Shown here one piece after another: positions 14,242 to 30,889 of a DNA stretch of 64,000 bases. Positions within the stretch are counted from its first letter, which is position 1, and every line of letters begins with the position of its first letter. The notes beneath the pieces are model-generated. The model was not told the DNA's origin and ran no database searches. It was given only the letters and a program-made list of their open reading frames with translations. The position numbers were made by a program, and so were the translations under genes. The stretch comes from an uncultured Gemmatimonadales bacterium (GTDB taxonomy: Bacteria; Gemmatimonadota; Gemmatimonadetes; Longimicrobiales; RSA9), in assembly GCA_963708135.1 (NCBI GenBank), contig OY970192.1, positions 1,824,001 through 1,888,000 of the forward strand, in the 5' to 3' direction.

Positions 14242-14294
14242 CTATTCCTTCTATTGCCGCCTGAGGCAAAACACAAAATCATAGGGGAGGAAAC

Positions 14295-14681
14295 TTGAGC
14301 GATCGGGAGCAGGTTGTCGTAAAGACGTACAAGGGAAGGGAATCGAAAGCCGCAGAGCTGTTTCAAGAAGACGCAGCGAAAATGGCATTACAGGGTTACA
14401 TTCCGACATCGCAGAGTTGGGCTCCGGGTGCCTATGGGTGCGGCTCCTTCCTCTTCGCGCTGCTACTGTGCTTTGTCCTGATCGGATTCTTGGTTTTCAT
14501 TTACATGCTGCTGGTTAAGCCGGACGGAACACTTTCTGTAACGTACGAGCTGCGAATCGAAGTGCAAGGCTCGAAGCAATCTGCTCCAACCGCGGAAAAG
14601 ACATGCCCAAAGTGTGCGGAAAACGTAAAGGCGGCAGCTACTGTTTGTCGCTTCTGCGGACACAACTTCGAGCCGGCCTAA
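14295..14681 (+). CDS. Membrane protein with a C-terminal zinc ribbon; integron cassette ORF
   Basis: GGAGG RBS, TM segment, CPKCAENVKAAATVCRFCG; stop codon lies inside the attC inverse core. Confidence 0.85.
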   Translation: MSDREQVVVKTYKGRESKAAELFQEDAAKMALQGYIPTSQSWAPGAYGCGSFLFALLLCFVLIGFLVFIYMLLVKPDGTLSVTYELRIEVQGSKQSAPTAEKTCPKCAENVKAAATVCRFCGHNFEPA

Positions 14682-14736
14682 CAAGGCCATGCAGGCGACG
14701 TCCGAAGACGCACGCGCCTGATGGCCGGCGTTAGGG
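14676..14736 (+). other. Integron attC site (about 61 bp)
   Basis: Inverse core GCCTAAC, core GTTAGGG, inner GCCATGCAGGCG / CGCCTGATGGC pairing with one extrahelical G. Confidence 0.85.
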
Positions 14737-14894
14737 TTACAACAATGAAGCGTTCTCTCTGGAAACAAAGTCTTACCAAAAACTGGTGCCCTGCGTGGCC
14801 GTGCCCCGTTTGCCGAAAGGAGTCTGTAAAGCTTGTACCAAAATCACTTATATATAAAGAAAACGTCAATTCAAAACGAGCGCACAGCCATGAA

Positions 14895-16655
14895 CCTCCC
14901 GTATTCACCACGCGTAGGTTGAGCCGATTGAGCGCGTGATTTGGAATTCGGCGGCGGCGTGCGTGGCGCCCGGGCTGATTACGGGGACAGCCCCCCTTTC
15001 CCCCGGCGCGCCGCCGACGGCTCCGTGCTCCGATCGCTCCCCGCCCGAGAAGGCCTACGCTGGAGTGGGCAGGGCCAGGGCGGCGGGGGAGCCGCGGGCC
15101 GAGTAGCGCCGGCTCATTTCTCGCCAGAAGCGCTGCCACAGGTGCGCGCGGCCCGCGTCGATGACGAGCGTGAGTCGTCGGCCGCTCACCAGCACGCGTC
15201 CCGCCGCTTTGAGCACGAGTTGGCGGAAGCGCTGGCGGGTCATGACCTGACGTTCGCCGCACGAGACCAGTTCTGCGCCAGCTCTCAGCAGGTTGGCCGC
15301 GATGAGGCTCAGCAGCAGGCGCGCCTCGTTGGCGCCGAAGCTGTCGGTGTCGGGCTCGGGCGTGGCGACGCTCCGCCCGCGGTAGTGCTTCTTGGGCCGC
15401 GGCGCCGACGAGAGCGCCAGCGCCAGCGTGCTTTTCCAGTCCCCGAACTCCCGCTCGGCTTCTCCCCGCGCCCGGTAGCGCTCCAGCAGCGCCGGGCCGT
15501 CTACCTCTTCGGTGCTCGCGTTCGTGAGCAGGAAAAAATGGTCGAGGAACAGCTCCCCCTGCTCGTCCGAGCGCTCCAGCATCACGAGCACCACCCGGCG
15601 CGCATGGTCCCAGCGCCCGGCAGCATAGGTCAGCTCGTGCGTCCAGATCCGACCTTCGGCCGGCGGGTGTCCAGGCGGCCGCTTCAGGTACGGCGCCGCG
15701 AGTCTCTCCAGGCGTGCATTCCCACGCAGCCGGGCCACGTAGCGCACGCCCTCGTCCTCCAGCGTGGCCAGCAACTCGTTCTCCGGGAATCCCGCATCCA
15801 TGCGCAGCCACACCTGCTCCGCCTGCGTCTTCGCCCAGAGCACCGCGGGGACCACAAAGCCCAGCGCGCCTTGCGCCGTGTGCGCGTTTCCCTCTCGCAG
15901 CTCGGCCGCCAGGAAGTCTCCCAACTCCCAGCGCAGCACCAGCGGGTGGTAGCAGCAGCAGCCATAGTGCGCGTTCCACGAGCTGCCCGGCTGCAGCCCG
16001 TGCACTTCGACCGGCAGCGAATCCAGATCCAGCGTGACCTCCGCAACGCGCGGCGCGTTCCGGCCCCGCCGCCGCTCCGCACCCCGCAGCAGGAGCGTGG
16101 AAAGGCCCTGCCGGTTTCCCGGGTCGGCCAGCACCGCCAGGAGCCGCGACAGGGTTGGCTGAGAGGCCAGCCCGGAGGCCGCGCCCGCAGCCCCACCCCG
16201 CACCGGCGCCGTCCCCCGGCGCCGCGACACGGCCACGCGCAGCGCCGGATCGGCGCGCAGCAGGTCCGCATCCCGCTGGTCCGTCCATCCCTGCGCCAGC
16301 AGGAGCACCTGCGTGAGCATCAGCTCGAGGAAGTCGTGCGTGATCCGCGCGGGGTCGCGCGGGTCGTGCAGGTGGTGGTGGACCAGCGCCGGGAAGCCCA
16401 GCCGCTCCAGCAGCGCACGCAACAGCACCGCGCCCGCGTCCGAGGTCAGCCGCTCCGGTCGCGCCTCCACGCCCATCGAACGGTTGAAATCCAGCCGGAA
16501 AAGTGTACCTTGTTCTTCACCCATGGCGTGTTTGTCGTGTGGTCCGGAAGGATGGTTTGGTTTGCACCCCCATCTCACGGTCACACAGGCAGATGCGCCA
16601 TGGGCGCTTACGCCCTACACAACCCCTCCACTAACCCGCTCGTGAATACGGCAGG
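14895..16655 (-). mobile_element. IS1380-family element, copy A (1761 bp)
   Basis: IRs CCTCCCGTATTCAC / GTGAATACGGCAGG; 5-bp target duplication ATGAA. Confidence 0.95.
15055..16524 (-). CDS. IS1380-family DDE transposase
   Basis: LTSDAG, LASQPTLSR, LDLDS, WNAHYG..CYHPL, LRMDAGF, YRARGEAE. Confidence 0.95.
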   Translation of the reverse strand: MGEEQGTLFRLDFNRSMGVEARPERLTSDAGAVLLRALLERLGFPALVHHHLHDPRDPARITHDFLELMLTQVLLLAQGWTDQRDADLLRADPALRVAVSRRRGTAPVRGGAAGAASGLASQPTLSRLLAVLADPGNRQGLSTLLLRGAERRRGRNAPRVAEVTLDLDSLPVEVHGLQPGSSWNAHYGCCCYHPLVLRWELGDFLAAELREGNAHTAQGALGFVVPAVLWAKTQAEQVWLRMDAGFPENELLATLEDEGVRYVARLRGNARLERLAAPYLKRPPGHPPAEGRIWTHELTYAAGRWDHARRVVLVMLERSDEQGELFLDHFFLLTNASTEEVDGPALLERYRARGEAEREFGDWKSTLALALSSAPRPKKHYRGRSVATPEPDTDSFGANEARLLLSLIAANLLRAGAELVSCGERQVMTRQRFRQLVLKAAGRVLVSGRRLTLVIDAGRAHLWQRFWREMSRRYSARGSPAALALPTPA

Positions 16656-16684
16656 ATGAAGCATGGGACCCTGATTGGATTGAA

Positions 16685-18445
16685 CCTCCCGTATTCACCA
16701 CGCGTAGGTTGAGCCGATTGAGCGCGTGATTTGGAATTCGGCGGCGGCGTGCGTGGCGCCCGGGCTGATTACGGGGACAGCCCCCCTTTCCCCCGGCGCG
16801 CCGCCGACGGCTCCGTGCTCCGATCGCTCCCCGCCCGAGAAGGCCTACGCTGGAGTGGGCAGGGCCAGGGCGGCGGGGGAGCCGCGGGCCGAGTAGCGCC
16901 GGCTCATTTCTCGCCAGAAGCGCTGCCACAGGTGCGCGCGGCCCGCGTCGATGACGAGCGTGAGTCGTCGGCCGCTCACCAGCACGCGTCCCGCCGCTTT
17001 GAGCACGAGTTGGCGGAAGCGCTGGCGGGTCATGACCTGACGTTCGCCGCACGAGACCAGTTCTGCGCCAGCTCTCAGCAGGTTGGCCGCGATGAGGCTC
17101 AGCAGCAGGCGCGCCTCGTTGGCGCCGAAGCTGTCGGTGTCGGGCTCGGGCGTGGCGACGCTCCGCCCGCGGTAGTGCTTCTTGGGCCGCGGCGCCGACG
17201 AGAGCGCCAGCGCCAGCGTGCTTTTCCAGTCCCCGAACTCCCGCTCGGCTTCTCCCCGCGCCCGGTAGCGCTCCAGCAGCGCCGGGCCGTCTACCTCTTC
17301 GGTGCTCGCGTTCGTGAGCAGGAAAAAATGGTCGAGGAACAGCTCCCCCTGCTCGTCCGAGCGCTCCAGCATCACGAGCACCACCCGGCGCGCATGGTCC
17401 CAGCGCCCGGCAGCATAGGTCAGCTCGTGCGTCCAGATCCGACCTTCGGCCGGCGGGTGTCCAGGCGGCCGCTTCAGGTACGGCGCCGCGAGTCTCTCCA
17501 GGCGTGCATTCCCACGCAGCCGGGCCACGTAGCGCACGCCCTCGTCCTCCAGCGTGGCCAGCAACTCGTTCTCCGGGAATCCCGCATCCATGCGCAGCCA
17601 CACCTGCTCCGCCTGCGTCTTCGCCCAGAGCACCGCGGGGACCACAAAGCCCAGCGCGCCTTGCGCCGTGTGCGCGTTTCCCTCTCGCAGCTCGGCCGCC
17701 AGGAAGTCTCCCAACTCCCAGCGCAGCACCAGCGGGTGGTAGCAGCAGCAGCCATAGTGCGCGTTCCACGAGCTGCCCGGCTGCAGCCCGTGCACTTCGA
17801 CCGGCAGCGAATCCAGATCCAGCGTGACCTCCGCAACGCGCGGCGCGTTCCGGCCCCGCCGCCGCTCCGCACCCCGCAGCAGGAGCGTGGAAAGGCCCTG
17901 CCGGTTTCCCGGGTCGGCCAGCACCGCCAGGAGCCGCGACAGGGTTGGCTGAGAGGCCAGCCCGGAGGCCGCGCCCGCAGCCCCACCCCGCACCGGCGCC
18001 GTCCCCCGGCGCCGCGACACGGCCACGCGCAGCGCCGGATCGGCGCGCAGCAGGTCCGCATCCCGCTGGTCCGTCCATCCCTGCGCCAGCAGGAGCACCT
18101 GCGTGAGCATCAGCTCGAGGAAGTCGTGCGTGATCCGCGCGGGGTCGCGCGGGTCGTGCAGGTGGTGGTGGACCAGCGCCGGGAAGCCCAGCCGCTCCAG
18201 CAGCGCACGCAACAGCACCGCGCCCGCGTCCGAGGTCAGCCGCTCCGGTCGCGCCTCCACGCCCATCGAACGGTTGAAATCCAGCCGGAAAAGTGTACCT
18301 TGTTCTTCACCCATGGCGTGTTTGTCGTGTGGTCCGGAAGGATGGTTTGGTTTGCACCCCCATCTTACGGTCACACAGGCAGATGCGCCATGGGCGCTTA
18401 CGCCCTACACAACCCCTCCACTAACCCGCTCGTGAATACGACAGG
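16685..18445 (-). mobile_element. IS1380-family element, copy B
   Basis: Near-identical to copy A, with its own 5-bp target duplication TTGAA. Confidence 0.95.
16845..18314 (-). CDS. IS1380-family DDE transposase
   Basis: Same protein as copy A. Confidence 0.95.
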   Translation of the reverse strand: MGEEQGTLFRLDFNRSMGVEARPERLTSDAGAVLLRALLERLGFPALVHHHLHDPRDPARITHDFLELMLTQVLLLAQGWTDQRDADLLRADPALRVAVSRRRGTAPVRGGAAGAASGLASQPTLSRLLAVLADPGNRQGLSTLLLRGAERRRGRNAPRVAEVTLDLDSLPVEVHGLQPGSSWNAHYGCCCYHPLVLRWELGDFLAAELREGNAHTAQGALGFVVPAVLWAKTQAEQVWLRMDAGFPENELLATLEDEGVRYVARLRGNARLERLAAPYLKRPPGHPPAEGRIWTHELTYAAGRWDHARRVVLVMLERSDEQGELFLDHFFLLTNASTEEVDGPALLERYRARGEAEREFGDWKSTLALALSSAPRPKKHYRGRSVATPEPDTDSFGANEARLLLSLIAANLLRAGAELVSCGERQVMTRQRFRQLVLKAAGRVLVSGRRLTLVIDAGRAHLWQRFWREMSRRYSARGSPAALALPTPA

Positions 18446-19054
18446 TTGAATACACATTTACCGCCTGGGCGGAATGCGGACATCAATCTTGTAAACAGCA
18501 GTTTGCAATAGCTGGCGTAGGTGGCGTCTCACCTGAACAGACTGAGGACGGGTTTGAGTGGGAGGACTACTTCGCACCTCAAATCTGCCAACCCATGCCA
18601 GATATGTTGGATTTTCCAAAAAAATGTCCGGACGAAGTCAAAGAAGAACTCCGAGCGGCATTTGGGCTCTTCTGGTCGCACCAAGCTGCCTGTGCTGGTC
18701 GGATTCGCGTTTCCCTTGAGTGCCTGATGAACCACTTAGGTTAGGCATACCAAAACGAAAGAAAGATAAGAACGGAAAATATTTTGACTTATCTTATCTC
18801 TCCATGCGCGCATTGATGTCTTTGCAAAAGCAGAGCCGAATGTAGGTTCACATCTAATGGCGCTGAAATGGTTAGGAAACGCTGGAAGTCACAATGGAGA
18901 AGTCAGGAAAGACGACTTGCTGGATGCGTTCGAAATTATGGAGCATGCGCTAGTTGAGATCATAGACAAGCGCTCGGCCAAAGTTGCTGCCCTAGCCAAA
19001 AAAATTACAAAAAAACATGGTCGATAGAAACTCTACCTTGTCACTCAACCGGAC

Positions 19055-19447
19055 GTGTCACTCGTCGCGGGGCATCTGGAGGCGCACGTCCCGCCAGGCA
19101 CGCGGCTCACCCTGGCCGGCGACAGCTACGGCGCGCGCGCGGCCTCCATCGCGCCCGATCATTTTGCACTGCAGGCCGCCGACGCGGCGCTCCACGCCGT
19201 CTACGGCGTGCACCCGCTCGTAGTGCGCTCGGGCGGCACGGTGCCCATCGCCGAGCTCTTTCAGCGGCATCTCGGGTTGGACACCGTGTTCTTTTCCTTC
19301 AGCACGGCCGACGAGGACTTCCACGCTCCCAACGAGTTCTTCCGCGTGCACCGGCTGCACGAAGGGCTCGAGGCGTGGGCGCGCTACTGGGAGATTCTAG
19401 GCGAGCGGGGATCCAGCTCGCCAGGAGCGCCACCCCGGGGCGGCTGA
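19055..19447 (+). pseudogene. C-terminal fragment of an M20 dipeptidase
   Basis: RSGGTVPI, DEDFHAPNEFF; abrupt GC jump at the 5' junction. Confidence 0.85.
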
Positions 19448-21033: not shown

Positions 21034-21345
21034 ATGGCGAAGAAGAAGATCTCGGAAGCAGCCGTGGCGCCCTTCGCGCCAACCGGGGCGCCGCACACCG
21101 TGCAGGCCAGCACGTTCAAGGCGACGTGTCTCGAATTGATGGACGAAATCGAAGCGAGCGGATTCGAGGTCGTCGTCACCAAGCACGGCCGCCCCGTGGT
21201 GAAGGTGGGACCGGTGGAGCCGAGCGTCCCTTCTCCGTTGGGGTTTCTGCGCGGGACCGTCGTGGATGAGGGAGACTTGGTGAGCCCCGACCACGACGCA
21301 TGGAGCGAGGCGGTGGCGGACCCGCTCCACACGGATCGGAAGTAG
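21034..21345 (+). CDS. Phd/YefM-family antitoxin
   Basis: ASTFKATCLELMDEI...VVVTKHGRPVVKV. Confidence 0.9.
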   Translation: MAKKKISEAAVAPFAPTGAPHTVQASTFKATCLELMDEIEASGFEVVVTKHGRPVVKVGPVEPSVPSPLGFLRGTVVDEGDLVSPDHDAWSEAVADPLHTDRK

Positions 21346-21776
21346 TGGCGACCGTGCGCGCGGTGCGCGAGCGGCCCCAGCGCCGGCCGCGGCGCGCGCG
21401 CGCACCAAAGCGCGTGGCGGGTTCGGTGCTCTGGCGCGCGGTGGAGGAACCGGAGCGCGAAGACGCCCTGCTCCTGGACACGCACGTGTGGCTGTGGACG
21501 CTCGCCGGCACCACGGAGCGACTGGCCGCGCAGGCGGTCGCGCTCGTGCAGTCAGCCGCGGCCGCCGGCCGCCTCTACGTGAGCGACATTTCCTTCTGGG
21601 AGGTGTCGCTCAAGGCATCGAAACGGAAGCTGACGCTGGTGATCGATCCCACCCTCTGGCTCGAGCGCGCCGCGCGGGCACCGGGCATTCGCGCGCTGCC
21701 GCTCGCGCGCGAGGTGCTGATCCAGAGCACGCGCCTTCCGGGCGCTATGCACGGCGATCCCGCCGACCGCATGCTC
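21345..21776 (+). pseudogene. PIN/VapC toxin, C-terminally truncated
   Basis: LLLDTHVWLW, SFWEV, HGDPADRML, then unrelated sequence. Confidence 0.85.
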
Positions 21777-21861
21777 TGCAGTGGACATTGCGCGCGGAGG
21801 ATAAGGTAGGCGCCACCTACAGGCTCACGGACACGAATCCCGTCCGCAGACATTAGCGAAA

Positions 21862-21893
21862 GCCCCCCGACCAACGGTCGGGGGGTTTTTTTT
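21862..21893. terminator. Intrinsic terminator hairpin, likely bidirectional
   Basis: CCCCCCGACC-AAC-GGTCGGGGGG followed by T8. Confidence 0.85.
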
Positions 21894-21905
21894 AAAAAAT
21901 ATTTT

Positions 21906-22811
21906 CAGTACTGTCCGGTTAAGCTGAGATGATGATGCCGTAACGGATTGCTACGTGGTGCGTTACGACGTTTTGGTTGCCGCACCGATTTGAACTTCGC
22001 TGCTGCGCCGCTATCCTGCCCGGACCCCCCGGCCGGAGTGGCGCATGAATCCCGGAAGCACGGTTTTCTCACAGGTGATGGCCCACGCATCTCGCTTCGC
22101 GCTCGATCGGTGCATCCGCCGCTACCACGGCAACCGGAGGGTCCGACGTTTCTCGTGTCGGGACCAGTTCCTCGCCATGGCCTTTGCCCAGCTCACCTAC
22201 CGGGAGAGCCTGCGGGACCTCGAGGCCACCCTCGGGGCGGCCCCCGAGAAGCTGTACCATCTTGGCTTCCGTTCGCCGCTCTCTCGCAGCACGCTCGCCG
22301 ATGCGAACGAGAATCGCGACTGGCGCATCTACGCCGATTTCGCTCAACGCCTGATCGCAGACGCGCGTCGGCTCTACGCCGACGACACGTTGGGGATCGA
22401 GCTCACGAACACCGTCTACGCGCTGGATTCCACCACGATCGACCTGTGTTTGGACCAACGACGTCGCGCTGCCCGCCGTTACCGTGGCCGAGCTCTACCG
22501 CCTGCGGTGGCAGATCGAGCTCTTCTTCAAATGGATCAAGCAGCACCTCAGGATCAAGCGCTTCTTCGGCACGAGCGCGAACGCTTTGCGCACGCAGATC
22601 TGGATCGCGATCAGCGTTTACGTCCTCGTCGCGATCGTCCGCAAGCGGCTCCGGATCGAGCGCGAACTCTACACAATTCTACAGATCCTGAGCGTCTATG
22701 CGTTCGAGAAAGCCCCTCTCGCACAAGTACTTACGCGTTCGGCCTACACCCCCGAAGTCCCCTCCGATCGTAACCAGTTGTCGCGCTTCAACTTATAACC
22801 GGACACTACTG
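21906..22811 (+). mobile_element. Internally deleted IS4-family element (906 bp)
   Basis: IRs CAGTACTGTCCGGTTA / TAACCGGACACTACTG; 9-bp target duplication AAATATTTT; transposase N-part (22045 to about 22452) joined out of frame to the C-part YRLRWQIELFFKWIKQ. Confidence 0.93.
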
Positions 22812-22826
22812 AAATATTTTCTAAAT

Positions 22827-23507
22827 TTACTTTTCTTCCTCGCCTTTTTCTTTCTTTTCTTTCTTCTCTTCCTTTTCTTCGCCTTCCTCGCCTTCGGCTT
22901 CCTCTTTGCCTTCCTTCTTCACGCCCTCAACGGCTTCTTCGAGATCTACCTCGGTCGGCTGGGCCAATTCTGCTTCGAGCTCTTCTTCGGACTTCGGCGG
23001 CTGGACGGCGGCGACGGTCATCTCCGGATCATCCACCAGAATCTCCACCTTACTGTGGTCCACCGGCAAATCCTTGACGCGGATGGCGTCCTCGAAATTT
23101 TTCAAAGCCGAAATATCCACGACAATCTCCGAAGGCAGGTCGCCCGGCAAGCTCTCGACTTCGACTTCATAAAGAGTCGGCACGAAAGTGCCCTGCAGTT
23201 CTTTGACCGCCGGAGATTCGCCGACGAATTCGATCGGCACGGTGGCCGTCAGTTTTTCCGCCATATTCACCTGGTAAAAATCCACGTGCGTAATCTGGCC
23301 TCGGGTGATGTGCTTCTGAATGTCTTGGATCAAGACCTTGACCGGCTCGGTCTCCCCCACTTGCAGGCCGACGATAGTGCTCTCGCCGGCGTCACGATAG
23401 ATTTTTTCAAAATCACCCGCCGGCACGGACAAGGAACGCGCCTCGATCCCGTGCCCGTACAGAACCCCGGGGATATAGCCGGCGTGGCGAAGTCCTTTCG
23501 CTTTTTC
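22827..23507 (-). pseudogene. rplY: 5'-truncated ribosomal protein L25/TL5 (Ctc) of foreign origin
   Basis: LRHAGYIPGVLYG, HVDFYQV, VPIEFVGESPAVK, LPSEIVVDISAL, acidic/Lys tail; lower GC than host genes. Confidence 0.9.
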
Positions 23508-23598
23508 TGGGCGCGCGCCGGCGGACCTGGCAGCGCCTCGGCGGACCCTCGCGCGTGCAGCACCGCCGAGCGGCCCTTGGTGGCGCCGGGCGGCCTCC

Positions 23599-23760
23599 TC
23601 AGTCCTGCGGCGCCATCGGCAGCTCGCGCACGTGCCGGCCCGTGAGCGCGAACCAGGCGTTGGTGAGCGCCGGGGCGGCGGGTGGGAGGCCCGGCTCGCC
23701 GACCCCCCCCGGGTCCTCGCGGCTGTCCACGATGTGCACGTCGATCTCGGGCGCCTCCAG
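23599..23760 (-). pseudogene. Second copy of the molybdopterin oxidoreductase C-terminal fragment
   Basis: Matches 11942-12103. Confidence 0.9.
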
Positions 23761-23785
23761 TGGAGCCGGCGGGAGTCGAACCCGC
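23761..23785 (-). repeat. 25-bp copy of the tmRNA 3' end
   Basis: Identical to 30515-30539. Confidence 0.97.
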
Positions 23786-23945
23786 ACCAGATCCCCCACC
23801 CCCGGATCGCGATTCGCCAGTAACCGCAACAACTATGAGCGGTTTCGACCGTCGGGGTGTGGGCCGCCAGGTCCGGCGCTGACGGCCGGCGCGTTGTCCC
23901 GCTCCGCCATGGTGGTGCCCCGGGTCTCGTCGAACCCTTCGGGGC

Positions 23946-25526
23946 ATGCCCACCGTCGCACGCCCCCGATCCGTTTGGGTCCCGCCGCAGGCACAGGCGC
24001 ACCGCCCAGGGCACTCCGCAACGCCACCCGCCCAGGCCGCCGTTTACCGCCGACGACGGCCCACGGCCACGCCCCTCTACCCCATCGTCCAGCACCACAT
24101 CGAGGGCTTCCTGGCCCGGGCCGCCGAAGCCGATCCCTGGGGCGAGGGCGTGGCCGGCTGGGTCGAGGCCGACTTCCGGGCCTACCTCCGCTGCGGCATC
24201 CTGGCCCACGGCTTCGCCCGCGTCCGCTGTGACGACTGCGCCGCCGAGCGCCTCGTCGCCTTCTCCTGCAAGGGCCGCGGCGTCTGCCCCTCCTGCAACG
24301 CCCGCCGGATGGTCGAGGTCGCCGCGCACCTGAACGACGCCGTCCTGCCGCCGCTCCCGATCCGCCAATGGGTCCTCTCCGTCCCGAAGCGGATCCGCCC
24401 CTTCTTCCACCACGATCCCGCCCTTGCCGGCGCCGTGCTCCGGATCCTGCTCCGGGCCGTCCGCACCCGCCTGCGTCACGGCAGTCCCGGTGCCGGCCCG
24501 GACGCGCAGATCGGCGCCGTCTCCTTCCTCCACCGCTTCGGCTCCGCCCTCAATCCCCACTTCCACTTCCACGTCGTGGTTCTCGATGGCGTCTTCACCG
24601 GGACCGTGGACGGCGAGGTCCGCTTCGATGAGGCGACCCACTTTTCCGCCGACGACGCCTCCGCCCTCACGCCCGTCCTCCAGCGCCGCATCCTGCGCCT
24701 CTTCCAACGCCGCGGCCTCCTCGAGGAGCACACGGTGAACGACATGCTCACCTGGCAGGGCACCGGCGGCTTCAGCCTCGACGCCTCCGTCCGCATCCAC
24801 GGCGCCGACCGGGCCGGCCGCGAGCGGCTCCTCCGCTACTGCGCCCGGCCGCCGTTTGCCCTCGATCGCCTGCGGATCGAGCGTCAGTCCGGAGGGCGGG
24901 CCGACGACGACGCGGGGGTCCGCCGCGTGTTCTACCGACCCTCCCGGCCCACCTCCGACGGACGCGCCCTCCTCGCCCTCTCACCCCTCGAGTTTCTGGA
25001 AGCACTTTCCCGACTGATCCCGCCGCCCCGGGTTCACCGCCACCGCTACCACGGCGTTCTCGCCCCCAACGCACGGCTCCGGCCCCACGTCGTCGCCCTC
25101 CAACGCGACGCAGAGGCCCACGCGGACGAAGCCCACGGCGAGGGGCCCGGGGTCCACACCTACAACGAGCCCGCTACCACCCTCACCGGCGCCGCCGCCC
25201 GCTCCCGCTGGGCCCAGCTCCTCGCCCGCATCTACGAGGTCTTCCCCCTCCGCTGCCCCGAGTGCGGCTCGCAGATGCGCATCATCGCTTTCCTCACCGA
25301 CCCCGCGCCCGTGGGCGCCATCCTCCGACATCTCGACCTGCCCCACACCACACCGCCGCTCTCCCCCGCACGCGCTCCACCCCAAGCCGCACTCGCGCTC
25401 GACGCCGAGCCCCTCGCACCCGCCGATGCCCTGCCCCGCGACGACTTCGACCAGACGCCCGCGTTCGATCCGGCTGACCCCGAGCCCCTACCCGAGCTCG
25501 ACCTCGACCAGACCCGCGGCGCCTGA
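23946..25526 (+). CDS. IS91/ISCR-family rolling-circle transposase
   Basis: 526 aa with intact motifs. Confidence 0.95.
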   Translation: MPTVARPRSVWVPPQAQAHRPGHSATPPAQAAVYRRRRPTATPLYPIVQHHIEGFLARAAEADPWGEGVAGWVEADFRAYLRCGILAHGFARVRCDDCAAERLVAFSCKGRGVCPSCNARRMVEVAAHLNDAVLPPLPIRQWVLSVPKRIRPFFHHDPALAGAVLRILLRAVRTRLRHGSPGAGPDAQIGAVSFLHRFGSALNPHFHFHVVVLDGVFTGTVDGEVRFDEATHFSADDASALTPVLQRRILRLFQRRGLLEEHTVNDMLTWQGTGGFSLDASVRIHGADRAGRERLLRYCARPPFALDRLRIERQSGGRADDDAGVRRVFYRPSRPTSDGRALLALSPLEFLEALSRLIPPPRVHRHRYHGVLAPNARLRPHVVALQRDAEAHADEAHGEGPGVHTYNEPATTLTGAAARSRWAQLLARIYEVFPLRCPECGSQMRIIAFLTDPAPVGAILRHLDLPHTTPPLSPARAPPQAALALDAEPLAPADALPRDDFDQTPAFDPADPEPLPELDLDQTRGA

Positions 25527-26069
25527 ACGGCCAGGTGCGCCCGGCAACCGCTACAGGCGCCAGGTCACACCCACATCCGATGCCGAATCGACCGGAACCT
25601 CCACCCAATCCCGCTCGCCCGCCCATCACCCCCACCCTTGACCCGGCGAAACCACCCCGCCTATCCTACCGAAAGCAGCCGAAACGGCGTTTGGATTTCC
25701 TATCCCTCCGGCTTCCTCCACATCGGGGCGTGGCAATCATCCGTTCACGCGAAGCCGCAAAGCGCCGAAGGCAGTACACCGGTGTGTTGGGAACCTGCGT
25801 ACCGACGGCCCGTCCTGTGGCATGGATCCCAGCCATACCCGCCGAGTTCGGTTTTCTAGGTTGCGGGATTCGCGCCTTCGGCCCGTGCTGCCTTCGCGTG
25901 AACCGAGTGGAAGGACGCCCCCGAAGCCCGCGGTTGGCCGAGGGATGTCGCTCCGCCTCCTCCGCCACTCCGCGCGAACCGCGGATGTGTGAAGCGGGAC
26001 GAAGCGGGAACATGGATGCGTGCGCCGCACGGTTGCATCCTTGGCGGGACCCACTTCCGGAGAATCTTC

Positions 26070-28706
26070 ATGATGCGCCACGCCTGCCGCCGGGTGCTCC
26101 TCCTCCTGCTCTCGAGCAGCATGTCCCTGGCCGCCCAGACCCCATCCTCCCCCCGCGTCCGCCTCTCGCTGAACGAAGGGTGGCGCTTCTTCGCGGGCGA
26201 CGTCGCCGGCGCGGACGCCCCGGCCTTCGACGATGCCGCCTGGGCTCGCGTGGACCTGCCCCACACCTGGAACGCGAGCGACGCCCTGCGCAAGGAGCCG
26301 GAGTACCGCCGGGGCGCCGGCTGGTACCGGCGTCGCCTGGAGGTCACGCCGGCGATGACGGGCAAGCGCCTGTTCCTCTACTTCGAGGGCGCGAACCAGG
26401 TCGCGGACGTGTGGGTGAACGGGAAGTCCGCCGGGCGACACGTGGGCGGATACACGGCCTTCGCCATGGACGTGACGGACCTCGTCGTCCCCGGCACGAA
26501 CGTCGTGGCGGTTCGCGTGGACAACTCCTTCGACCCGGACATCCCGCCGCTCAGCGCCGACTTCACCTTCTACGGCGGCCTCTACCGCAACGTCTGGCTG
26601 CTGGCGACGGATCCCCTTCACGTCACCGTCCTCGACCACGCGTCGCCGGGCGTCTTCGGCGACGTGCCGGCCCTGGCGTCCGGGCGCGCGGCGGTGCGCG
26701 TGCGCGGCACCATTGCGAACGACGGCGCGGCGAAGCGCACCGCCCGCGTGGTCACGCGCGTCGTGGACGGCGACGGCGGCGAGGTGGCGACGGCGTCCTT
26801 CGACGTCCCCGTCGGCCCCCGTGCGACGGCGGCCTTCCAGCGGACGCTGCCGCCGATCACGGCGCCCAGGCTGTGGTCGCCGGACGAGCCCAACCTGTAC
26901 ACGCTGCGCACGGAGGTCCTCGACGGTGCCCGCCTGGCCGACCGCGTGGACGCGCCGCTCGGGCTGCGCTGGTACGCGTGGGATGCGCAGAAGGGCTTCT
27001 CCCTCAACGGCAAGCCCTACCAGCTGCATGGCACGAACCGGCACCAGGACGTGCGCGGGCTGGGGAACGCGCTGCCGGACGCGCTGCAGCGCCGCGACGT
27101 CGCCCTGGTGAAGTCCACCGGCTTCGACTTCCTGCGCCTCGCCCACTACCCGCAGGCGCCCGCGGTGCTGGACGAGGCCGACCGGACCGGCGTCGCGCTC
27201 TGGGAGGAGATCCCGGTCGTCAACACGATCACCATGTCGGAGGCGTTCGCCGCCAACGCCGAGCGCATGGTGACCGAGATGGTGAAGCAGCACTACGACC
27301 ACCCGTCGGTGCTGTTCTGGGGCTACATGAACGAGATCATGCTCGTGCCCCCGAAGCCGATGCCGGCCGGGTACGTGGACGCCGTCGTCGCACTGGCGAA
27401 GCGGCTGAACGCGCGCGTGAAGGCGGAGGACACCACGCGCCCGACCGTCATGGCCGTGTTCGGGCACGACACCACTTCCGCGCTACACGCGGTGCCGGAC
27501 ATCCTCGGGCTGAACCTGTACTTCGGCTGGTATTACGGGGCGCTGCCGGACTTCGGCGCGTACGTGGACTCGCTGCACGCCGCCTACCCCGGCAAGCCGC
27601 TCATGATCAGCGAGTACGGCGCGGGCGACGACGAGCGCATCCACGCGGCGTCGCCCCGGCGGCTGGACTTCTCGACCGAGTACGAGCAACGCTACCACGA
27701 GGGGACGTTCCCCCAGGTCCTCGCCCGGCCGTGGCTGCTCGGCAGCGCGCTCTGGAACCAGTTCGACTTCGGCTCCTGGAACCGCAACGACGTGCAGCCA
27801 ATGGTCAACGACAAGGGACTCTTCTACTTCGATCGCCGGCCCAAGGATGTGGCCTACTACTACATGGCCCGCCTGCGACGCGACCCCGTCCTGCACATCG
27901 CCGTCCGCGACTGGCCGGCGCGCGCCGGCAGCACGCCCGCGGACCGGACGACCGAGGTGGTCGTGTACAGCAACGCGTCTTCCGCATCACTCGCGTTGGA
28001 TGGGACGGCGCTGGGCGAGCGGCCGGTCCAGAACGGCCGCGCTTCCTGGGAGGTGATCCTGCACGACGGCGAGAACCGGCTGGAGGCGCGTGCGAGCTTC
28101 CAGGGGCGGGAGCTCACGGACGCGGCGGTGGTGCGCTACCGGGATCGGAGCACCCTGTTCGCCAGGCCTGATGTTTCCCCCGCGACGGCGCCTGCTGCCG
28201 CCCCGTCGGCGCCGGGCACGGCGTTCCGCTTCCCGCCCGCCGCCGAGATCGCCGTCAACGTGGGCGCCACCTGGCAGTTCATCGACCGCGCCGGCGTCAC
28301 CTGGGAGCCGGATCGCGCATACACGCCCGGGAGTTGGGGCTGGGTCGGCGGCGGCGCCCCCGCCTCAACTAACCACCGCATCTACGACACGGCCGACGAT
28401 CCGCTCCTGCAGACCGCCCGCGAGGGCGCCGCCGCCTGGCGCTTCGACGTGCCCGACGGTCGCTACGAGGTCGAGCTGCGCTTCGTCGAGACGCTGCACG
28501 ACAACCCCGGGGAGCGCGTCTTCGACGTGGACGTGAACGGCCTCACTCTGGCCGAGAGGCTGGACCTCGCCGCGGTGCCCGGCCGCTGGCACGCGCGCAC
28601 GGTGGTGGTGGAGGTGGACGCCGCGGACGGGCACGGAATCGTGGCGAAGCTGAGCGCGCGGGCGGGGACGACGACCATCAGCGCGATCCGGGTGACGCGC
28701 CGCTGA
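26070..28706 (+). CDS. Secreted GH2 beta-galactosidase/glucuronidase with a C-terminal malectin-like domain
   Basis: LPHTWN, YFEGAN, GTNRHQD, RLAHYP, MNE acid/base, ISEYGA nucleophile, RVFDVDVNG. Confidence 0.92.
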   Translation: MMRHACRRVLLLLLSSSMSLAAQTPSSPRVRLSLNEGWRFFAGDVAGADAPAFDDAAWARVDLPHTWNASDALRKEPEYRRGAGWYRRRLEVTPAMTGKRLFLYFEGANQVADVWVNGKSAGRHVGGYTAFAMDVTDLVVPGTNVVAVRVDNSFDPDIPPLSADFTFYGGLYRNVWLLATDPLHVTVLDHASPGVFGDVPALASGRAAVRVRGTIANDGAAKRTARVVTRVVDGDGGEVATASFDVPVGPRATAAFQRTLPPITAPRLWSPDEPNLYTLRTEVLDGARLADRVDAPLGLRWYAWDAQKGFSLNGKPYQLHGTNRHQDVRGLGNALPDALQRRDVALVKSTGFDFLRLAHYPQAPAVLDEADRTGVALWEEIPVVNTITMSEAFAANAERMVTEMVKQHYDHPSVLFWGYMNEIMLVPPKPMPAGYVDAVVALAKRLNARVKAEDTTRPTVMAVFGHDTTSALHAVPDILGLNLYFGWYYGALPDFGAYVDSLHAAYPGKPLMISEYGAGDDERIHAASPRRLDFSTEYEQRYHEGTFPQVLARPWLLGSALWNQFDFGSWNRNDVQPMVNDKGLFYFDRRPKDVAYYYMARLRRDPVLHIAVRDWPARAGSTPADRTTEVVVYSNASSASLALDGTALGERPVQNGRASWEVILHDGENRLEARASFQGRELTDAAVVRYRDRSTLFARPDVSPATAPAAAPSAPGTAFRFPPAAEIAVNVGATWQFIDRAGVTWEPDRAYTPGSWGWVGGGAPASTNHRIYDTADDPLLQTAREGAAAWRFDVPDGRYEVELRFVETLHDNPGERVFDVDVNGLTLAERLDLAAVPGRWHARTVVVEVDAADGHGIVAKLSARAGTTTISAIRVTRR

Positions 28707-30203
28707 TCGTGGGCGGGCCAGCGGAGGGCCGCAGCGGGAGAGCCGGCCCCCCGCTCCCCCCTGCCGGGCACCGGTGCCGGTCGGTCGCCGGTCCGCCGCG
28801 GCGATCCAGCTGCCGCGCCAGCTGCGGGTTGGGCAATCCGGACGTGCCGTCGATCCTCGCCGGCAGCTCCTTGACGGGCCGTCCGAGCAGCCGATAGCCG
28901 CCGTAGAAATCGTTCGTGTACACCGTCCGCGGCCAGGGGCGGGAGCGGATGCGCGCGGCCTCCACGCGCCACGCGCGCGCCGCGTACCCCCGACCCTCCC
29001 GATGGGTCGCGAGCGCCTCGCGCGCGCCGGCCGCCGCGCGCAGGCCGAAGAGGGCGACACACGCGCCCAGCGCCAGCGCGAGACCCGGCAGCGGCGGCGT
29101 TCCGCGGACGCCGCCCATCCGGCGGCGGCGACCCCGACGAGCAGGTACAGCCCCGGCAGCAGCGGCGAGAGAAGGCGCGCATCCATCGGCGTGGCTGCGT
29201 CCACCACCGAGATGGATACCACCAGGAAGAGCAGGTACGCTGCCCCGAACGCGGTCCAGATCGCCAGCTCACCCCGGTCGCAGGAGCGCCAGCGGCGGCG
29301 CACGCCCACGATCAGCCATGCGGCCACGAGGGCGCAGACGGCGGCCATGAGCAGGTGCGGGGACGGATCGGGGACGAGCCAGAACGCCACGGTGCGCATC
29401 CCTTCCAGCACCTGCGTCGCGCCCAGCGGATGCCACGCCAGCGTCCGGTTCGTGGCGCTGCCGCCCGCCAGCCGATTCCGCGCGAGCCAGAGCGCGAGCG
29501 GGAGCGCGCTCACCACCGTCCAGGTGAGCGCCTCGCCCAGGCGCCGTCGCCACGGCCACCCCGGCCGCAGCAGCAGGACCGCTCCCCCGACGCCGATCAC
29601 GACCACGCCCGCGTACCTGAGCAGCACGCCCGCCGCCGCGAAGGCCGCGCCTGCAAGCAATGCCTTGCGATTGCCGTTCGCGGCTAGCCGCAGGAAGTAC
29701 AGGGCCCACACCAGCACCAGCAACGCGGGCACATCCGTCCAGGCGCGTGTGCTGAGCGCGAGCGCCGGACCGCCGAACGCGAGCAACCCGGCTGAGATCA
29801 GCCCCGCCAGCCGTGAGCGGGCCGTGCGCAGCGCCACCCACCCAACGGACCCCACCAGGGCCGCGAACGCCACGATCGCCAGGCAGCGCGCGCCTGCCTC
29901 CACCGGCAGGCTCAGCATCAGCAAGGCGGCGAGCAGGGACGAATAGAGCGGCGGGAAGTGCGTCACCGGCGCAGGAACACCGTTCGGCGCGATCGCGATG
30001 AAGCCGTTACCGCCAGCGAGGTGCCTGGCAGCGTCGAGATAGATGATGCTGTCGGGCGTGAGGCCGATCCCGGAGGACGTCACGAATAGCGCGGCCAGCG
30101 CGGCCAGAATCACAAGCGCGAACAACGCGGCGTAGTAACTCCGGTCGGCGCGTGCCGCGGCGACGTGATCGCCCCCCGGATGAGGGGGGGACAGGGTAGG
30201 CAC
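28678..30203 (-). CDS. Polytopic membrane protein (GT-C/ArnT-like), frameshift near 29100
   Basis: LTPDSIIYLDAA, HFPPLYS, LLRYAG, many TM segments; C-terminus in a second frame. Confidence 0.6.
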
Positions 30204-30468
30204 GATGTCCTCGGGGCAGGGCTGGATCGCGCACGGCCGTAAAGCCGAGTACGAAGAGGTCCGGGCGTGTGCCGTCCGGGTCCTTAGCAATTTCGCGCTA
30301 CCGGCTTCGCACCGTCAACGGTTCAGTGGATGGAAGGCCCGCCGACAAGGCCATGGCATGCCGCTCCCCGGAGCCTGCGGCACCACCGTCCCCGCCACAC
30401 GGCCGTCCTCGAGGATCCGGACGCAGAACCCACAAGACGGGGACGCGGGTGAGACGGAGTCGAGCGCC

Positions 30469-30509
30469 GGAAAACGAACGCGCCCGGCGATCCGAAGATC
30501 ACCGGGCGC
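30469..30509 (-). terminator. Hairpin downstream of ssrA
   Basis: GCGCCCGG-CGATC-CGAA-GATCA-CCGGGCGC followed by GTTCGTTTT on the minus strand. Confidence 0.65.
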
Positions 30510-30514
30510 TTCAA

Positions 30515-30879
30515 TGGAGCCGGCGGGAGTCGAACCCGCGTCCGCGAATCGATCCCTCAGTGCATCTACGTGCGTAGTCCACCGTTCTCAGTTTCTCGCT
30601 CCCTCATCGGCCGGTGGACGGCCCCGTCGGGAACCAGCCTCGCTGTGTCTCATCCGGCCGCGGCAAGGCGGCACGACCGGACCAGCCCGATTTGTCGATG
30701 CCTCTGGTCACGCCTCGGGCCCGGCCCGTCCAGAGACAGGTTGCGAAAGGTCAGACCTTACGCAGCCAGCGCCATGTTTGAGTTGGCACTTGTGATGTTT
30801 TCCCGCTGGTTTTACGAGGGCACGGGTCCTCGGCACGCGACACCGACTTCACGAAACACGTCGAAACCAGGTCGGCCCC
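30515..30879 (-). ncRNA. ssrA: tmRNA; tag reading frame ANSNMALAA* at 30787-30758; CCA not encoded
   Basis: 5' GGGGCCGACCTGGTTTCGAC, 3' GCGGGTTCGACTCCCGCCGGCTCCA, alanine G3:U pair, tag ending in LAA. Confidence 0.97.
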
Positions 30880-30889
30880 TACACCCGAT

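What the first reader, a model, noticed from the sequence alone, without database searches (positions are those of the whole stretch)
21777..23507. Foreign ribosomal protein L25 fragment, Patescibacteria-like, inside the chain
Seen: an rplY lacking its first codons, with AAA/GAA-rich codons and an AT-rich 3' region unlike host genes, plus a terminator and apparently the tail of a convergent ORF. This looks like about 0.8 kb of another organism's core chromosome once the IS4 is removed. Inference from remembered sequence style (AGESTIV, HVDFYQVNM, VGESPAVKEL): CPR/Parcubacteria origin. If so, it would imply DNA flow from a possible episymbiont and hint at a host link.
Basis: partly seen in the sequence, partly recalled or inferred. 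Interest (0 to 1): 0.72.

Follow-up and report, generated by a model that had tools for sequence, protein, structure and literature searches.

The report
Dead CPR ribosomal gene fragment in Gemmatimonadota
An 816-base dead piece of another bacterium's chromosome, most of a ribosomal protein L25 gene from a relative of the ultra-small Doudnabacteria, is lodged among jumping genes in a soil Gemmatimonadota genome, a rare physical trace of DNA passing from that group into a large-genome bacterium.

Summary
Window 21777-23507 is 816 bp of low-GC DNA (54.8% against a 72% genome), split by a host IS4-type copy (21906-22811) that has a 9-bp target duplication. It carries the 3' 90% of an rplY/CTC gene on the minus strand, about 22 codons short at the start. 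It also carries a strong hairpin-U8 terminator and a 26-codon open tail on the opposite strand. The host keeps its own rplY at genome position 880683 (35% identical).

The closest protein is an unnamed metagenome L25 (68%). The well-supported clade holding both also contains a named Candidatus Doudnabacteria protein and a genome of that GTDB Patescibacteria class. The best match in the host phylum is 45%. A CPR origin is therefore supported, Doudnabacteria-like rather than shown to be Parcubacteria.

The fragment lies between a truncated vapC-like gene and an IS91-family unit missing its left 147 bp. I favour illegitimate end-joining of foreign DNA at a break, since the host has Ku and LigD. 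IS91 one-ended transposition is the main rival.

No public contig bridges either junction, so read-level proof is lacking. The link to an episymbiont's host remains untested.

The parts
21300..21776 (+). vapC-like PIN-domain ORF, cut off at 21776; its 3' end is missing from the whole genome. An upstream Phd/YefM-like antitoxin ORF at 21034-21345 scores below the Pfam cut-off.
   Evidence: PIN PF01850 E 1.1e-07, profile 2-96 of 120. A paralogue match ends at 21776. A run X1 contig continues past 21776 with letters that translate IAHAQLGAMS. That 30-mer is absent from the genome at up to 4 mismatches.
21777..21856 (+). Left end of the foreign DNA: an open 26-codon frame ending in TAG (21854-21856), read as the tail of a gene convergent with rplY.
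   Evidence: Translation. No homologue among the fetched loci. GC of 21777-21905 is 54.3%. Reading it as a gene tail is inferred.
21858..21893 (+). Intrinsic-terminator-like hairpin: GC core 21863-21885, then T8 at 21886-21893, with an A-run on the far side, so it is possibly bidirectional.
   Evidence: RNA fold -27.4 kcal/mol, z -5.55 on the + strand; -22.5 kcal/mol, z -3.86 on the - strand. Sequence.
21897..21905 (.). Left copy of the 9-bp target-site duplication AAATATTTT made by the IS4-type insertion.
   Evidence: Read directly. The right copy is at 22812-22820.
21906..22811 (+). Host IS4-type element copy (DUF4372 N-terminus, DDE_Tnp_1 C-terminus) with a 416-bp internal deletion at 22452/22453 and imperfect terminal inverted repeats. 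It inserted after the foreign DNA was in a cell carrying this IS.
   Evidence: Pfam. Seven other copies at 99.5-100% over 21906-22452 and six at 98.6-99.4% over 22453-22811; the full copies hold 416 bp more. Depth about 55 in run X1 against 5-7 for flanking DNA.
22812..22820 (.). Right copy of the 9-bp target-site duplication AAATATTTT.
22827..23507 (-). Foreign rplY (bL25/CTC form) fragment: 226 codons plus stop (TAA, 22827-22829). It lacks about 22 N-terminal codons, its start codon and its promoter. No internal stop or frameshift.
   Evidence: Pfam; translation P0001; alignment A1; unique in the genome; homologues and trees.
23508..25707 (+). IS91-family unit, copy C. tnpA is at 23946-25526 and the conserved right (oriIS-side) end reads ...GGATTTCCTATCCCT. 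It lacks the leftmost 147 bp present in the 2348-bp copies at window 11703-14050 and genome 1814393-1816761.
   Evidence: Y2_Tnp E 3.3e-23 and Zn_Tnp_IS91 E 1.7e-17. Copy comparison.
23748..23802 (-). Copy of the 3' end of the host's own tmRNA gene inside the IS91 left arm: 25 nt identical, 38 nt at 92%. The rest of the arm is the C-terminal piece of a longer gene.
   Evidence: Rfam tmRNA E 2.4e-06, below the gathering score. Host ssrA lies at window 30515-30879 (-). Comparison. The arm peptide matches the C-terminal parts of two longer genome ORFs at 53% and 36%.

Best explanation
What it is. Window 21777-23507 holds a non-functional 816-bp fragment of the chromosome of a CPR/Patescibacteria bacterium related to Candidatus Doudnabacteria. 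It carries the 3' 90% of rplY, the terminator behind it, and the last codons of a convergent gene. It is physically integrated in the chromosome of a soil Gemmatimonadota bacterium, in an insertion-sequence hotspot about 7 kb from ssrA.

Shown.
- Identity of the gene and its foreign composition.
- Nearest kin of the protein.
- The exact breakpoints.
- A later hit by a host IS4-type element with a 9-bp target duplication.
- Truncation of both host-side partners: vapC lacks its 3' end, and the IS91 unit lacks its left 147 bp.

Inferred.
- DNA released by the donor entered the cell; a ComEC homologue is present.
- It was joined as filler into a break or deletion spanning the vapC 3' end and the left end of the IS91 unit. 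The joining was illegitimate (Ku/LigD-type) end-joining.
- The event is recent, since the fragment keeps donor composition and an unbroken frame.
- It may be polymorphic in the population.
- The fragment has no start codon or promoter and does nothing for the cell.
For: Identity.
- Pfam gives L25p plus TL5_C.
- The frame is about 22 residues short at the N-terminus.

Foreignness.
- 54.8% GC against 72.0%; GC3 67% against 96.5%; codon usage differs from host genes.
- The host's own rplY is at 880683, 35% identical.
- The fragment's DNA occurs once in the genome and in 0 of 60 relatives, apart from 29-50-nt chance-level matches in 6 of them.

Origin.
- Best hit is 68% (P0003), then 55-64% (P0004-P0013).
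- 10 of the 12 organism-named rows among the best 120 are CPR.
- 389 of 401 genomes of the phylum of a 'Parcubacteria group' genome match, best 190 bits. The best in 120 host-phylum genomes is 132 bits.
- IQ-TREE: query+P0003 98*, 12-row clade 100*, nested (86, 89) among known Patescibacteria.
- A profile search shows a gap after the 11 clade members: 362-403 bits, then 312.
- P0011's 90% cluster holds OGE84820.1, Candidatus Doudnabacteria.
- G585, of the GTDB class of G238, carries that protein and gives 228 bits / 58%.
- With these rows added the clade has 14 rows at support 99. It sits in a 37-row set (83) holding all ten loci of that class.

Really in the host.
- A host IS4-type copy with a 9-bp TSD sits inside the foreign DNA.
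- In run X1 a 385-nt contig of the fragment is 100% identical at depth 5, like the host flanks at 5-7.

End-joining.
- Both host-side partners are truncated.
- The genome encodes 4 Ku and 3 LigD-polymerase homologues and one ComEC.
- No plasmid or phage relative exceeds 38% identity, and no viral contig encodes a relative.
Against: - No Logan contig bridges 21776/21777 or 23507/23508. The only X1 contig over 21576-21776 carries two differences from the window and an intact vapC continuation. The left junction therefore rests on the assembly alone.
- The AU test does not reject placing the 12-row clade outside the sampled CPR rows (p 0.706). CPR membership of the clade rests on its named and GTDB-classified member, not on tree topology alone.
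- The closest relative is only 68% identical and unnamed. The actual donor lineage is unsampled, and its flanking genes could not be fetched.
- End-joining is inferred from the anatomy. Microhomology cannot be examined without the donor sequence, and natural capture of foreign DNA by bacterial end-joining is poorly documented (recalled).
- The fragment abuts exactly the terIS side of an IS91-family unit whose left arm is itself a mosaic of gene pieces. That fits the rival mechanism.
Confidence: 0.62

Rival explanations
1. IS91-family one-ended (read-through) transposition carried the fragment. On this view a unit made of the IS plus its 347-bp arm once sat inside rplY, in the donor or in an intermediate replicon. 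Rolling-circle transposition started at oriIS (25707 side), ran past the missing terIS through 816 bp of adjacent DNA, and delivered the whole 21777-25707 block to the present site.
For: - The fragment lies on the terIS (left, upstream of tnpA) side. That is where IS91-family termination failures co-mobilise adjacent DNA, in 1-14% of events for IS91 and IS1294 (PMC13181058, passages read).
- All five copies keep the same right end while their left ends differ.
- Copies A and B share a 495-bp left arm made of gene fragments yet have different flanks, so captured DNA does travel with this element.
- A head-to-tail tandem (E|A) exists, split by an IS21 with an 8-bp duplication.
- All four full and two partial transposase matches lie within 35 kb of the genome.
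Against: - The L25 fragment exists once only, so its mobilisation is not shown.
- The missing vapC 3' end is not at the other side of the block nor anywhere in the genome. A simple insertion therefore needs an extra deletion.
- Copy C's arm is shorter than the A/B unit, so the fragment is not simply appended beyond the usual left end.
- No IS91-type tetranucleotide (CTTG, GTTC, GTCC) is recognisable at the boundaries.
- Y2_Tnp was found in 0 of 146 genomes of the Doudnabacteria class, with a positive control of 7 matches in the host genome.
- Named transposase relatives are Longimicrobiales (62%) and Deltaproteobacteria (59%), none CPR.
Confidence: 0.25
2. Assembly or read chimera: the low-GC piece belongs to a different organism in the soil sample and was joined into the 5.4-Mb contig by mistake.
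For: - The genome appears to come from a soil metagenome; the only run holding the fragment is labelled soil metagenome.
- No public contig bridges either junction.
- The one contig over the vapC side shows an uninterrupted allele.
Against: - A copy of an IS that occurs at least 7 times in this genome at 99.5-100% identity sits inside the foreign DNA with a perfect 9-bp duplication. The piece therefore lived in a cell carrying that IS.
- The foreign DNA is only 129 + 687 bp and neither outer junction lies in a repeat on the foreign side. A mis-join would need two independent errors within 1.7 kb.
- Fragment depth in X1 (5) equals host depth (5-7).
Confidence: 0.07
3. The fragment is foreign but not from a CPR bacterium. 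It would come from an unsampled non-CPR lineage or a mobile element whose L25 merely resembles CPR proteins.
For:
- The AU test cannot exclude a position just outside the sampled CPR.
- The Atlas look-up lists Chloroflexota clusters at ranks 2-3.
Against: - A cluster-mate of clade member P0011 is a named Doudnabacteria protein. The same protein is encoded in a 0.9-Mb genome of a Patescibacteria class.
- The clade has 99-100 support.
- Chloroflexota reach at most 41% and the host phylum at most 45%.
- Plasmids and phages reach at most 38%, and viral contigs give nothing.
Confidence: 0.1

Closest known systems
bL25/CTC ribosomal protein genes of Candidatus Doudnabacteria (e.g. OGE84820.1 = P0331; GTDB-class genome G585, locus L170)
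   Same: Two-domain L25p + TL5_C architecture with an acidic, Lys/Glu-rich tail. 57% identity over 220 residues. Same well-supported clade.
   Different: The window copy is a 5'-truncated dead fragment in a Gemmatimonadota chromosome. It is closer (68%) to an unnamed metagenome protein. The genes downstream of rplY in L170 are co-directional and unrelated to the convergent tail seen here.
IS91 / IS1294 / ISCR one-ended transposition (co-mobilisation of DNA next to terIS)
   Same: An HUH Y2 transposase element with a constant oriIS-side end and variable left ends. There is no target duplication. Gene fragments are carried on the left arm, and the foreign piece sits on that side (PMC13181058 passages).
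   Different: Mobilisation of the L25 piece itself is not shown, as there is one copy. No recognisable target or cleavage tetranucleotide is present. The neighbouring host gene has lost its end, which simple IS91 insertion does not explain.
Illegitimate integration of foreign DNA in bacteria: Ku/LigD end-joining, and homology-facilitated illegitimate recombination during transformation. Both are recalled from the literature; no paper was read here.
   Same: A short foreign piece with arbitrary in-gene ends replaces host DNA. Both host-side partners are truncated. The host encodes Ku, LigD and ComEC homologues.
   Different: No experiment exists and there is no donor sequence with which to inspect junction microhomology. 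An anchor of homology is not evident unless the donor DNA carried the IS91.
Symbiont-to-host DNA fossils, such as Wolbachia DNA in insect genomes (mentioned in the introduction of PMC12455944, passage read)
   Same: Non-functional pieces of a small-genome associate's chromosome lodged in a larger partner's genome would mark past physical contact.
   Different: No association between Doudnabacteria and Gemmatimonadota is known to me or was found in my one search on it. Free DNA in soil is an equally good source.

Membership tests
Ribosomal protein bL25, CTC (long) form | N-terminal L25p domain (PF01386) above the curated cut-off | tested here: met
   73.6 bits against a cut-off of 23.6, but only profile positions 10-82 of 82. 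About 22 residues are missing against relatives.
Ribosomal protein bL25, CTC (long) form | C-terminal TL5_C domain (PF14693) | tested here: met
   68.3 bits against a cut-off of 27, profile 1-84 of 84.
Ribosomal protein bL25, CTC (long) form | A complete, expressible gene (start codon, full N-terminus) | tested here: not met
   The frame runs straight into IS91 sequence at 23508. It is a fragment, not a working member.
CPR / Patescibacteria origin (class Doudnabacteria or near) | Groups with L25 of genomes classified in that phylum or class, to the exclusion of other phyla | tested here: met
   The clade of 12-14 rows (100*, 99) includes G585 and OGE84820.1. Caveat: AU p 0.706 for holding the unnamed clade outside the sampled CPR rows, run before those two rows were added.
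CPR / Patescibacteria origin (class Doudnabacteria or near) | Flanking genes syntenic with a CPR genome | tested here: inconclusive
   The 26-codon tail has no match. L170 has different neighbours downstream. Contigs of the closest proteins could not be fetched.
IS4-type insertion sequence | DDE transposase with DUF4372 N-terminus, terminal inverted repeats, 9-bp target duplication, multiple copies | tested here: met
   Pfam; inverted repeats and TSD read; at least 7 other copies. That 9 bp is typical of IS4-family members is recalled.
IS91 family | Y2 HUH transposase with IS91 zinc-binding domain | tested here: met
   PF04986 E 3.3e-23 and PF14319 E 1.7e-17.
IS91 family | No target duplication; distinct oriIS and terIS ends | tested here: met
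   Five copies share one right end and show no flanking direct repeats. The resemblance of the right end to published oriIS sequences is recalled, not tested.
IS91 family | Target tetranucleotide (CTTG, GTTC or GTCC) next to oriIS | tested here: not met
   The flanks begin CCGG, GACG, TCGA, CACG and CGCA. The expected motifs are taken from PMC13181058. This member may have another specificity.
IS91/ISCR one-ended capture of the L25 fragment | The captured DNA is found moved together with the IS (at least 2 sites, or a circle junction) | tested here: not met
   The L25 fragment occurs once in the genome and in one public run. Only the older 495-bp arm is seen at two sites.

The most novel reading that the evidence does not exclude
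The fragment is a souvenir of direct cell-to-cell contact. On this reading a Doudnabacteria-related episymbiont lived on this Gemmatimonadota lineage. The host's IS91-family unit entered the symbiont's chromosome inside rplY. It then returned by one-ended rolling-circle transposition, bringing 816 bp of symbiont DNA with it. That would be the first sequence-level pointer to a host for Doudnabacteria. It would also show an IS91 element shuttling DNA between a CPR bacterium and its host.
Probability: 0.1. Interest if true: 0.85.

Novelty: new member of a known kind. Interest (0 to 1): 0.5.

Why it matters
Hosts are unknown for nearly all CPR lineages, Doudnabacteria included. Dead pieces of CPR core genes inside larger genomes cannot be explained by selection for a useful function. 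They therefore record plain DNA traffic and, possibly, physical proximity.

One case proves little. It does, however, suggest a cheap screen: look for compositionally foreign fragments of CPR ribosomal genes in closed genomes from the same habitats. The locus is also a compact natural example of two things: how an IS-ridden hotspot next to ssrA accumulates foreign DNA, and an IS91-family element that carries gene fragments on its terIS side outside the clinical ISCR setting.

Tried and rejected
- Junction check with public data. Read laying on 21200-24100 with 3 runs of one study gave no contig bridging 21776/21777 or 23507/23508. There was no cover at 21782-21878 and 22849-23042. This neither supports nor refutes the junctions. 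Runs X2 and X3 held only IS4-like relatives.\n- Donor in the same sample. 37 pattern matches in viral contigs, none encoding a relative. Phage records reach at most 37.7% and plasmid records at most 36.6%.\n- Tail ORF. tblastn of the 26 residues against all fetched loci gave nothing better than E 0.14.\n- Rfam on 21500-23800 gave nothing in the foreign DNA. ARAGORN found 0 tRNA or tmRNA genes in 1-30000.\n- The pattern scan for terminators missed the hairpin, so it was folded instead.\n- AU test for nesting inside CPR: not decisive, p 0.706.\n- ESM Atlas: Beckwithbacteria first, then Chloroflexota clusters; no use for placement.\n- Pfam on the IS91-arm peptides and on two ORFs of 6347-7682: 0 families.\n- An integrase next to ssrA was looked for and not found among 16 ORFs of 25989-38142.\n- The rest of rplY was sought just right of the IS91 copy (25708 onward) by eye and not found.\n- The earlier-findings look-up returned nothing.
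Full report
SETTING

The window is G000:C1:1824001-1888000 of a single-contig genome of 5,445,952 bp with 72.0% GC. By GTDB kinship the organism belongs to Gemmatimonadota:
- The L25 of a genome of the same class (G524, locus L164) is on record as '50S ribosomal protein L25 [Gemmatimonadales bacterium]'.
- The L25 of a genome of the same phylum (G468, L168) is on record as 'Candidatus Glassbacteria'.

The only public run that holds the fragment is labelled soil metagenome.

ANATOMY

Reading left to right:
- A Phd/YefM-like ORF at 21034-21345. It scores 25.5 bits, below the Pfam cut-off of 29.8.
- A PIN-domain vapC-like ORF that stops making sense at 21776.
- Low-GC DNA at 21777-21905.
- A copy of a host IS4-type element at 21906-22811.
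- Low-GC DNA at 22812-23507.
- An IS91-family unit at 23508-25707.
- A host glycoside hydrolase family 2 gene from 25989.

The IS4-type copy:
- It is flanked by the 9-bp direct repeat AAATATTTT at 21897-21905 and 22812-22820.
- It matches seven other genome copies at 99.5-100% over its left 547 bp, and six at 98.6-99.4% over its right 359 bp.
- It lacks 416 internal bp that those copies have.

Removing the IS and one repeat copy leaves 816 bp at 54.8% GC. Only 8 of 13613 genome windows of that size are at or below 56%.

THE GENE FRAGMENT

The minus strand of 22827-23507 encodes 226 residues plus a stop. Pfam gives Ribosomal_L25p (positions 10-82 of 82) and Ribosomal_TL5_C (1-84 of 84). Aligned with its 12 nearest proteins it lacks about 22 N-terminal residues (A1). 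It has no internal stop.

Composition and codon usage are unlike the host:
- GC3 is 67%, against 96.5% in the host's rplY.
- It uses AAA 10 times (AAG 11) and GAA 25 times (GAG 16). The host's rplY and the GH2 gene use AAA 0 times and GAA 3 and 2 times.

The host's own complete rplY is at genome 880683. It is followed by an ORF I recognise, by recall, as peptidyl-tRNA hydrolase.

Downstream of the foreign rplY stop lies a 10-bp GC stem with U8. It folds at -27.4 kcal/mol with z -5.6. Beyond it on the other strand is an open 26-codon frame ending in TAG. It found no homologue, so 'tail of a convergent gene' stays an inference.

THE BREAKPOINTS ARE REAL FEATURES

Left breakpoint (21776/21777):
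- In run X1 a 261-nt contig matches 21576-21776 with two differences. It then continues for 60 nt unlike the window.
- The first 30 of those letters translate IAHAQLGAMS, a natural continuation of ...DRML in a PIN protein.
- That 30-mer is absent from the whole genome at up to 4 mismatches.
- So a very close variant in the sample has an uninterrupted vapC, and this genome has lost the gene's 3' end.

Right breakpoint (23507/23508):
- Homology to the other IS91 copies starts exactly at 23508.
- Two fuller copies, at window 11703-14050 and genome 1814393-1816761, extend 147 bp further left.

Both host-side partners of the foreign DNA are therefore truncated.

IS IT REALLY IN THIS GENOME?

Two things argue against contamination or a chimera:
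- An IS that is multicopy in this genome sits inside the foreign DNA with a perfect target duplication.
- The only contig of the fragment in X1 (385 nt, 100% identical) has depth 5, like the host flanks at 5-7. The IS has depth about 55.

The fragment's DNA was not found in 60 relatives (36 of the same family, 24 of the same order). Six of them had only 29-50-nt matches at E about 4e-4 to 7e-4. G038, an unpublished genome, is among those 60.

ORIGIN

Protein search, over 5.8 billion proteins:
- 2078 hits at E <= 1e-10 among 3717 candidates.
- The best non-self hit is 68% identical (P0003, unnamed, 5.7-kb contig). The next ten (P0004-P0013) are 55-64%.
- Twelve of the best 120 rows carry an organism name. 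Ten are CPR taxa: Patescibacteria group x5, Doudnabacteria x2, Moranbacteria, Andersenbacteria and Paceibacterota. One is 'bacterium' and one is 'Methylomirabilota'.

Whole-genome searches:
- 389 of 401 genomes match in the phylum of a 'Parcubacteria group bacterium' genome, best 190 bits at 50-55%. The tally includes the unpublished G219, whose locus was not used.
- 119 of 121 genomes match in the host's phylum, best non-self 132 bits at 45%. The host's own rplY gives 88 bits at 35%. The tally includes the unpublished G038 and G521.

Trees:
- FastTree of 127 rows and IQ-TREE of 81 rows under LG+C20 agree.
- The fragment pairs with P0003 (99*, 98*) inside a 12-row clade of unnamed proteins (99*, 100*).
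- That clade lies inside sets that otherwise hold only known Patescibacteria (supports 80-92).
- Chloroflexota, the host phylum and five other phyla lie outside.
- Against this, an AU test did not reject holding the 12 rows with the 18 non-CPR rows (p 0.706). The constrained tree was even 10.9 log-likelihood units better than the quick free search. Topology alone does not prove nesting.

What settles the placement:
- A profile of the clade finds its 11 members at 362-403 bits, then a gap to 312.
- The 90% cluster of member P0011 contains OGE84820.1 / UniRef100_A0A1F5P5B5 of a Candidatus Doudnabacteria bacterium. It is 57% identical to the fragment.
- Searching the 146 genomes of the GTDB class of G238 gives G585 at 228 bits / 58%, well above anything in the phylum-wide sample. 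Its locus L170 encodes that same protein.
- With these rows added, the clade has 14 rows at support 99. It sits in a 37-row set (83) containing all ten loci of that class and the named Doudnabacteria proteins.

The local NCBI taxonomy files Doudnabacteria as a candidate phylum of its own. I therefore read the origin as CPR and Doudnabacteria-related. 'Parcubacteria' is not shown.

Several records titled 'uncultured Gammaproteobacteria' or 'Bdellovibrionales' have genomes of 0.6-1.0 Mb and cluster with Falkowbacteria. I treat those labels as doubtful.

HOW IT GOT THERE

IS91-family copies in the genome:
- There are five, and all lie within 35 kb.
- They share the right end ...GGATTTCCTATCCCT but differ at the left.
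- Copies A and B are 2348 bp.
- Copy C, next to L25, is 2200 bp.
- Copy D is 1853 bp.
- Copy E is rearranged.

The extra left arm of A, B and C is made of gene pieces:
- A copy of the last 25 nt of the host's own ssrA, which lies at window 30515-30879.
- The C-terminal end of a protein that matches the C-terminal parts of two longer host ORFs at 53% and 36%. By recall this is the xanthine dehydrogenase family molybdopterin subunit; Pfam gave nothing.
- In A and B only, a 46-codon C-terminal piece ending ...APAWLATIQRI*. By recall it is methyltransferase-like.

A and B have different flanks, so this arm travels with the IS. IS91-family elements start at oriIS and end at terIS on the left, upstream of tnpA. 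Termination fails in 1-14% of events and takes adjacent DNA along (PMC13181058; abstract, introduction and results passages read). The L25 piece sits on exactly that side, which makes one-ended transposition a serious candidate.

Against one-ended transposition:
- The L25 piece is single-copy.
- The vapC 3' end is not found on the far side of the block or anywhere else.
- Copy C's arm is shorter than the usual unit.
- No CTTG, GTTC or GTCC-type tetranucleotide marks the boundaries.
- Y2_Tnp was found in 0 of 146 Doudnabacteria-class genomes, with a positive control of 7 matches in the host.
- Transposase relatives with names are Longimicrobiales (62%) and Deltaproteobacteria (59%). The closest, at 80-83%, lie on a 4.46-Mb contig.

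The simpler reading of two truncated host partners around a piece with arbitrary in-gene ends is this: a deletion or break between vapC and the IS91 left end, repaired by illegitimate end-joining with foreign DNA as filler. The genome encodes four Ku homologues, three LigD-polymerase homologues and a ComEC homologue, so the means exist. This step is inferred, not shown.

I put about 0.45 on end-joining, 0.25 on IS91 one-ended transposition, and the rest on other routes or artefact.

TIMING

The fragment keeps donor composition and an intact frame although it cannot be expressed. The IS4-type copy inside it is 99.5-100% identical to its siblings. A close variant with an intact vapC co-occurs in the sample. 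All of this points to a recent, possibly polymorphic event.

HOST-LINK IDEA

Inter-phylum exchange involving Patescibacteria is documented, mostly into them (PMC12455944, passages read). My one search combining Patescibacteria, Gemmatimonadota, episymbiont and horizontal gene transfer listed 12 of 50 papers. Judging by titles and abstract starts, none reports a CPR-to-Gemmatimonadota transfer. This is one search, not proof of absence, and supplements were not read. Free soil DNA explains the fragment as well as an episymbiont does, so the idea stays open.

VERDICT

This is a real, recently acquired, dead fragment of a Doudnabacteria-related chromosome in an IS hotspot of a Gemmatimonadota genome. 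It is an ordinary kind of thing, foreign DNA debris, with an unusual donor. It is worth a read-level check and a systematic screen.

Noticed in passing
window 23508-23945 (also 11703-12289; genome 1814393-): The left arm of the IS91-family unit is a mosaic of gene pieces. It holds a 38-nt copy (92%; 25 nt exact) of the 3' end of the host's own ssrA. It also holds the C-terminal end of a gene homologous to two longer host ORFs. In the two longest copies there is a further 46-codon C-terminal piece of another gene. The arm occurs at two sites with different flanks, so it moves with the IS.
   Followed up: partly
window 9042-11704 and flanks 9034-9041 / 11703-11710: An IS21 (istA/istB) copy with an 8-bp duplication CACGATCC splits what was a head-to-tail junction of two IS91 copies. 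The right end ...TATCCCT was directly followed by the left end CACGATCC.... This tandem is as expected from rolling-circle read-through.
   Followed up: partly
genome 1814393-1849707 (window -9607 to 25707) and 3845478: All four full and two partial Y2_Tnp matches of the genome lie within 35 kb; only a 30-residue remnant lies elsewhere. The host ssrA is 5 kb to the right (window 30515-30879, minus strand). No integrase was seen among the ORFs checked beside it.
   Followed up: partly
window 14051-14890 and 18451-19054: These are the two lowest-GC stretches of the whole genome (50.4% and 47.2%). They flank a tandem pair of IS1380-like copies (14891-16660 and 16681-18450, 99.8% identical, 20 bp apart). 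One holds a UPF0547 zinc-ribbon ORF and the other a frameshifted DUF4145 gene. Their origin was not examined; they may be further foreign debris.
   Followed up: no
window 6345-7765: Between two IS91 copies lies a 61.7% GC stretch with two sizeable ORFs (6347-7138 and 7032-7682) that have no Pfam family.
   Followed up: partly
window 19055-19447: A C-terminal fragment of an M20 peptidase gene (Pfam positions 122-205 of 206) begins abruptly where the low-GC DNA ends. This is another truncated host gene in the chain.
   Followed up: no
window 21576-21776, run X1: A public contig 99% identical to the vapC region (G>C at 21698, G>A at 21701) continues into an intact vapC 3' end that this genome lacks. 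The insertion/deletion may be polymorphic in the population.
   Followed up: partly
loci L004, L005, L010, L011, L014, L016, L020-L024: Records titled 'uncultured Gammaproteobacteria' or 'uncultured Bdellovibrionales' carry L25 genes that cluster with Falkowbacteria and other CPR. Two that were checked lie in genomes of 0.6 and 1.0 Mb. The titles look wrong.
   Followed up: partly
protein P0015: An L25 named 'Methylomirabilota bacterium' (6.9-kb contig) sits next to a GTDB Patescibacteria genome inside the Doudnabacteria-like part of the tree. It is probably a mis-binned contig.
   Followed up: no
genome 343959-345285, 1506447-1509769, 5275397-5279242, 520091-520825: The host carries four Ku and three LigD-polymerase homologues, an unusually rich end-joining kit.
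   Followed up: no
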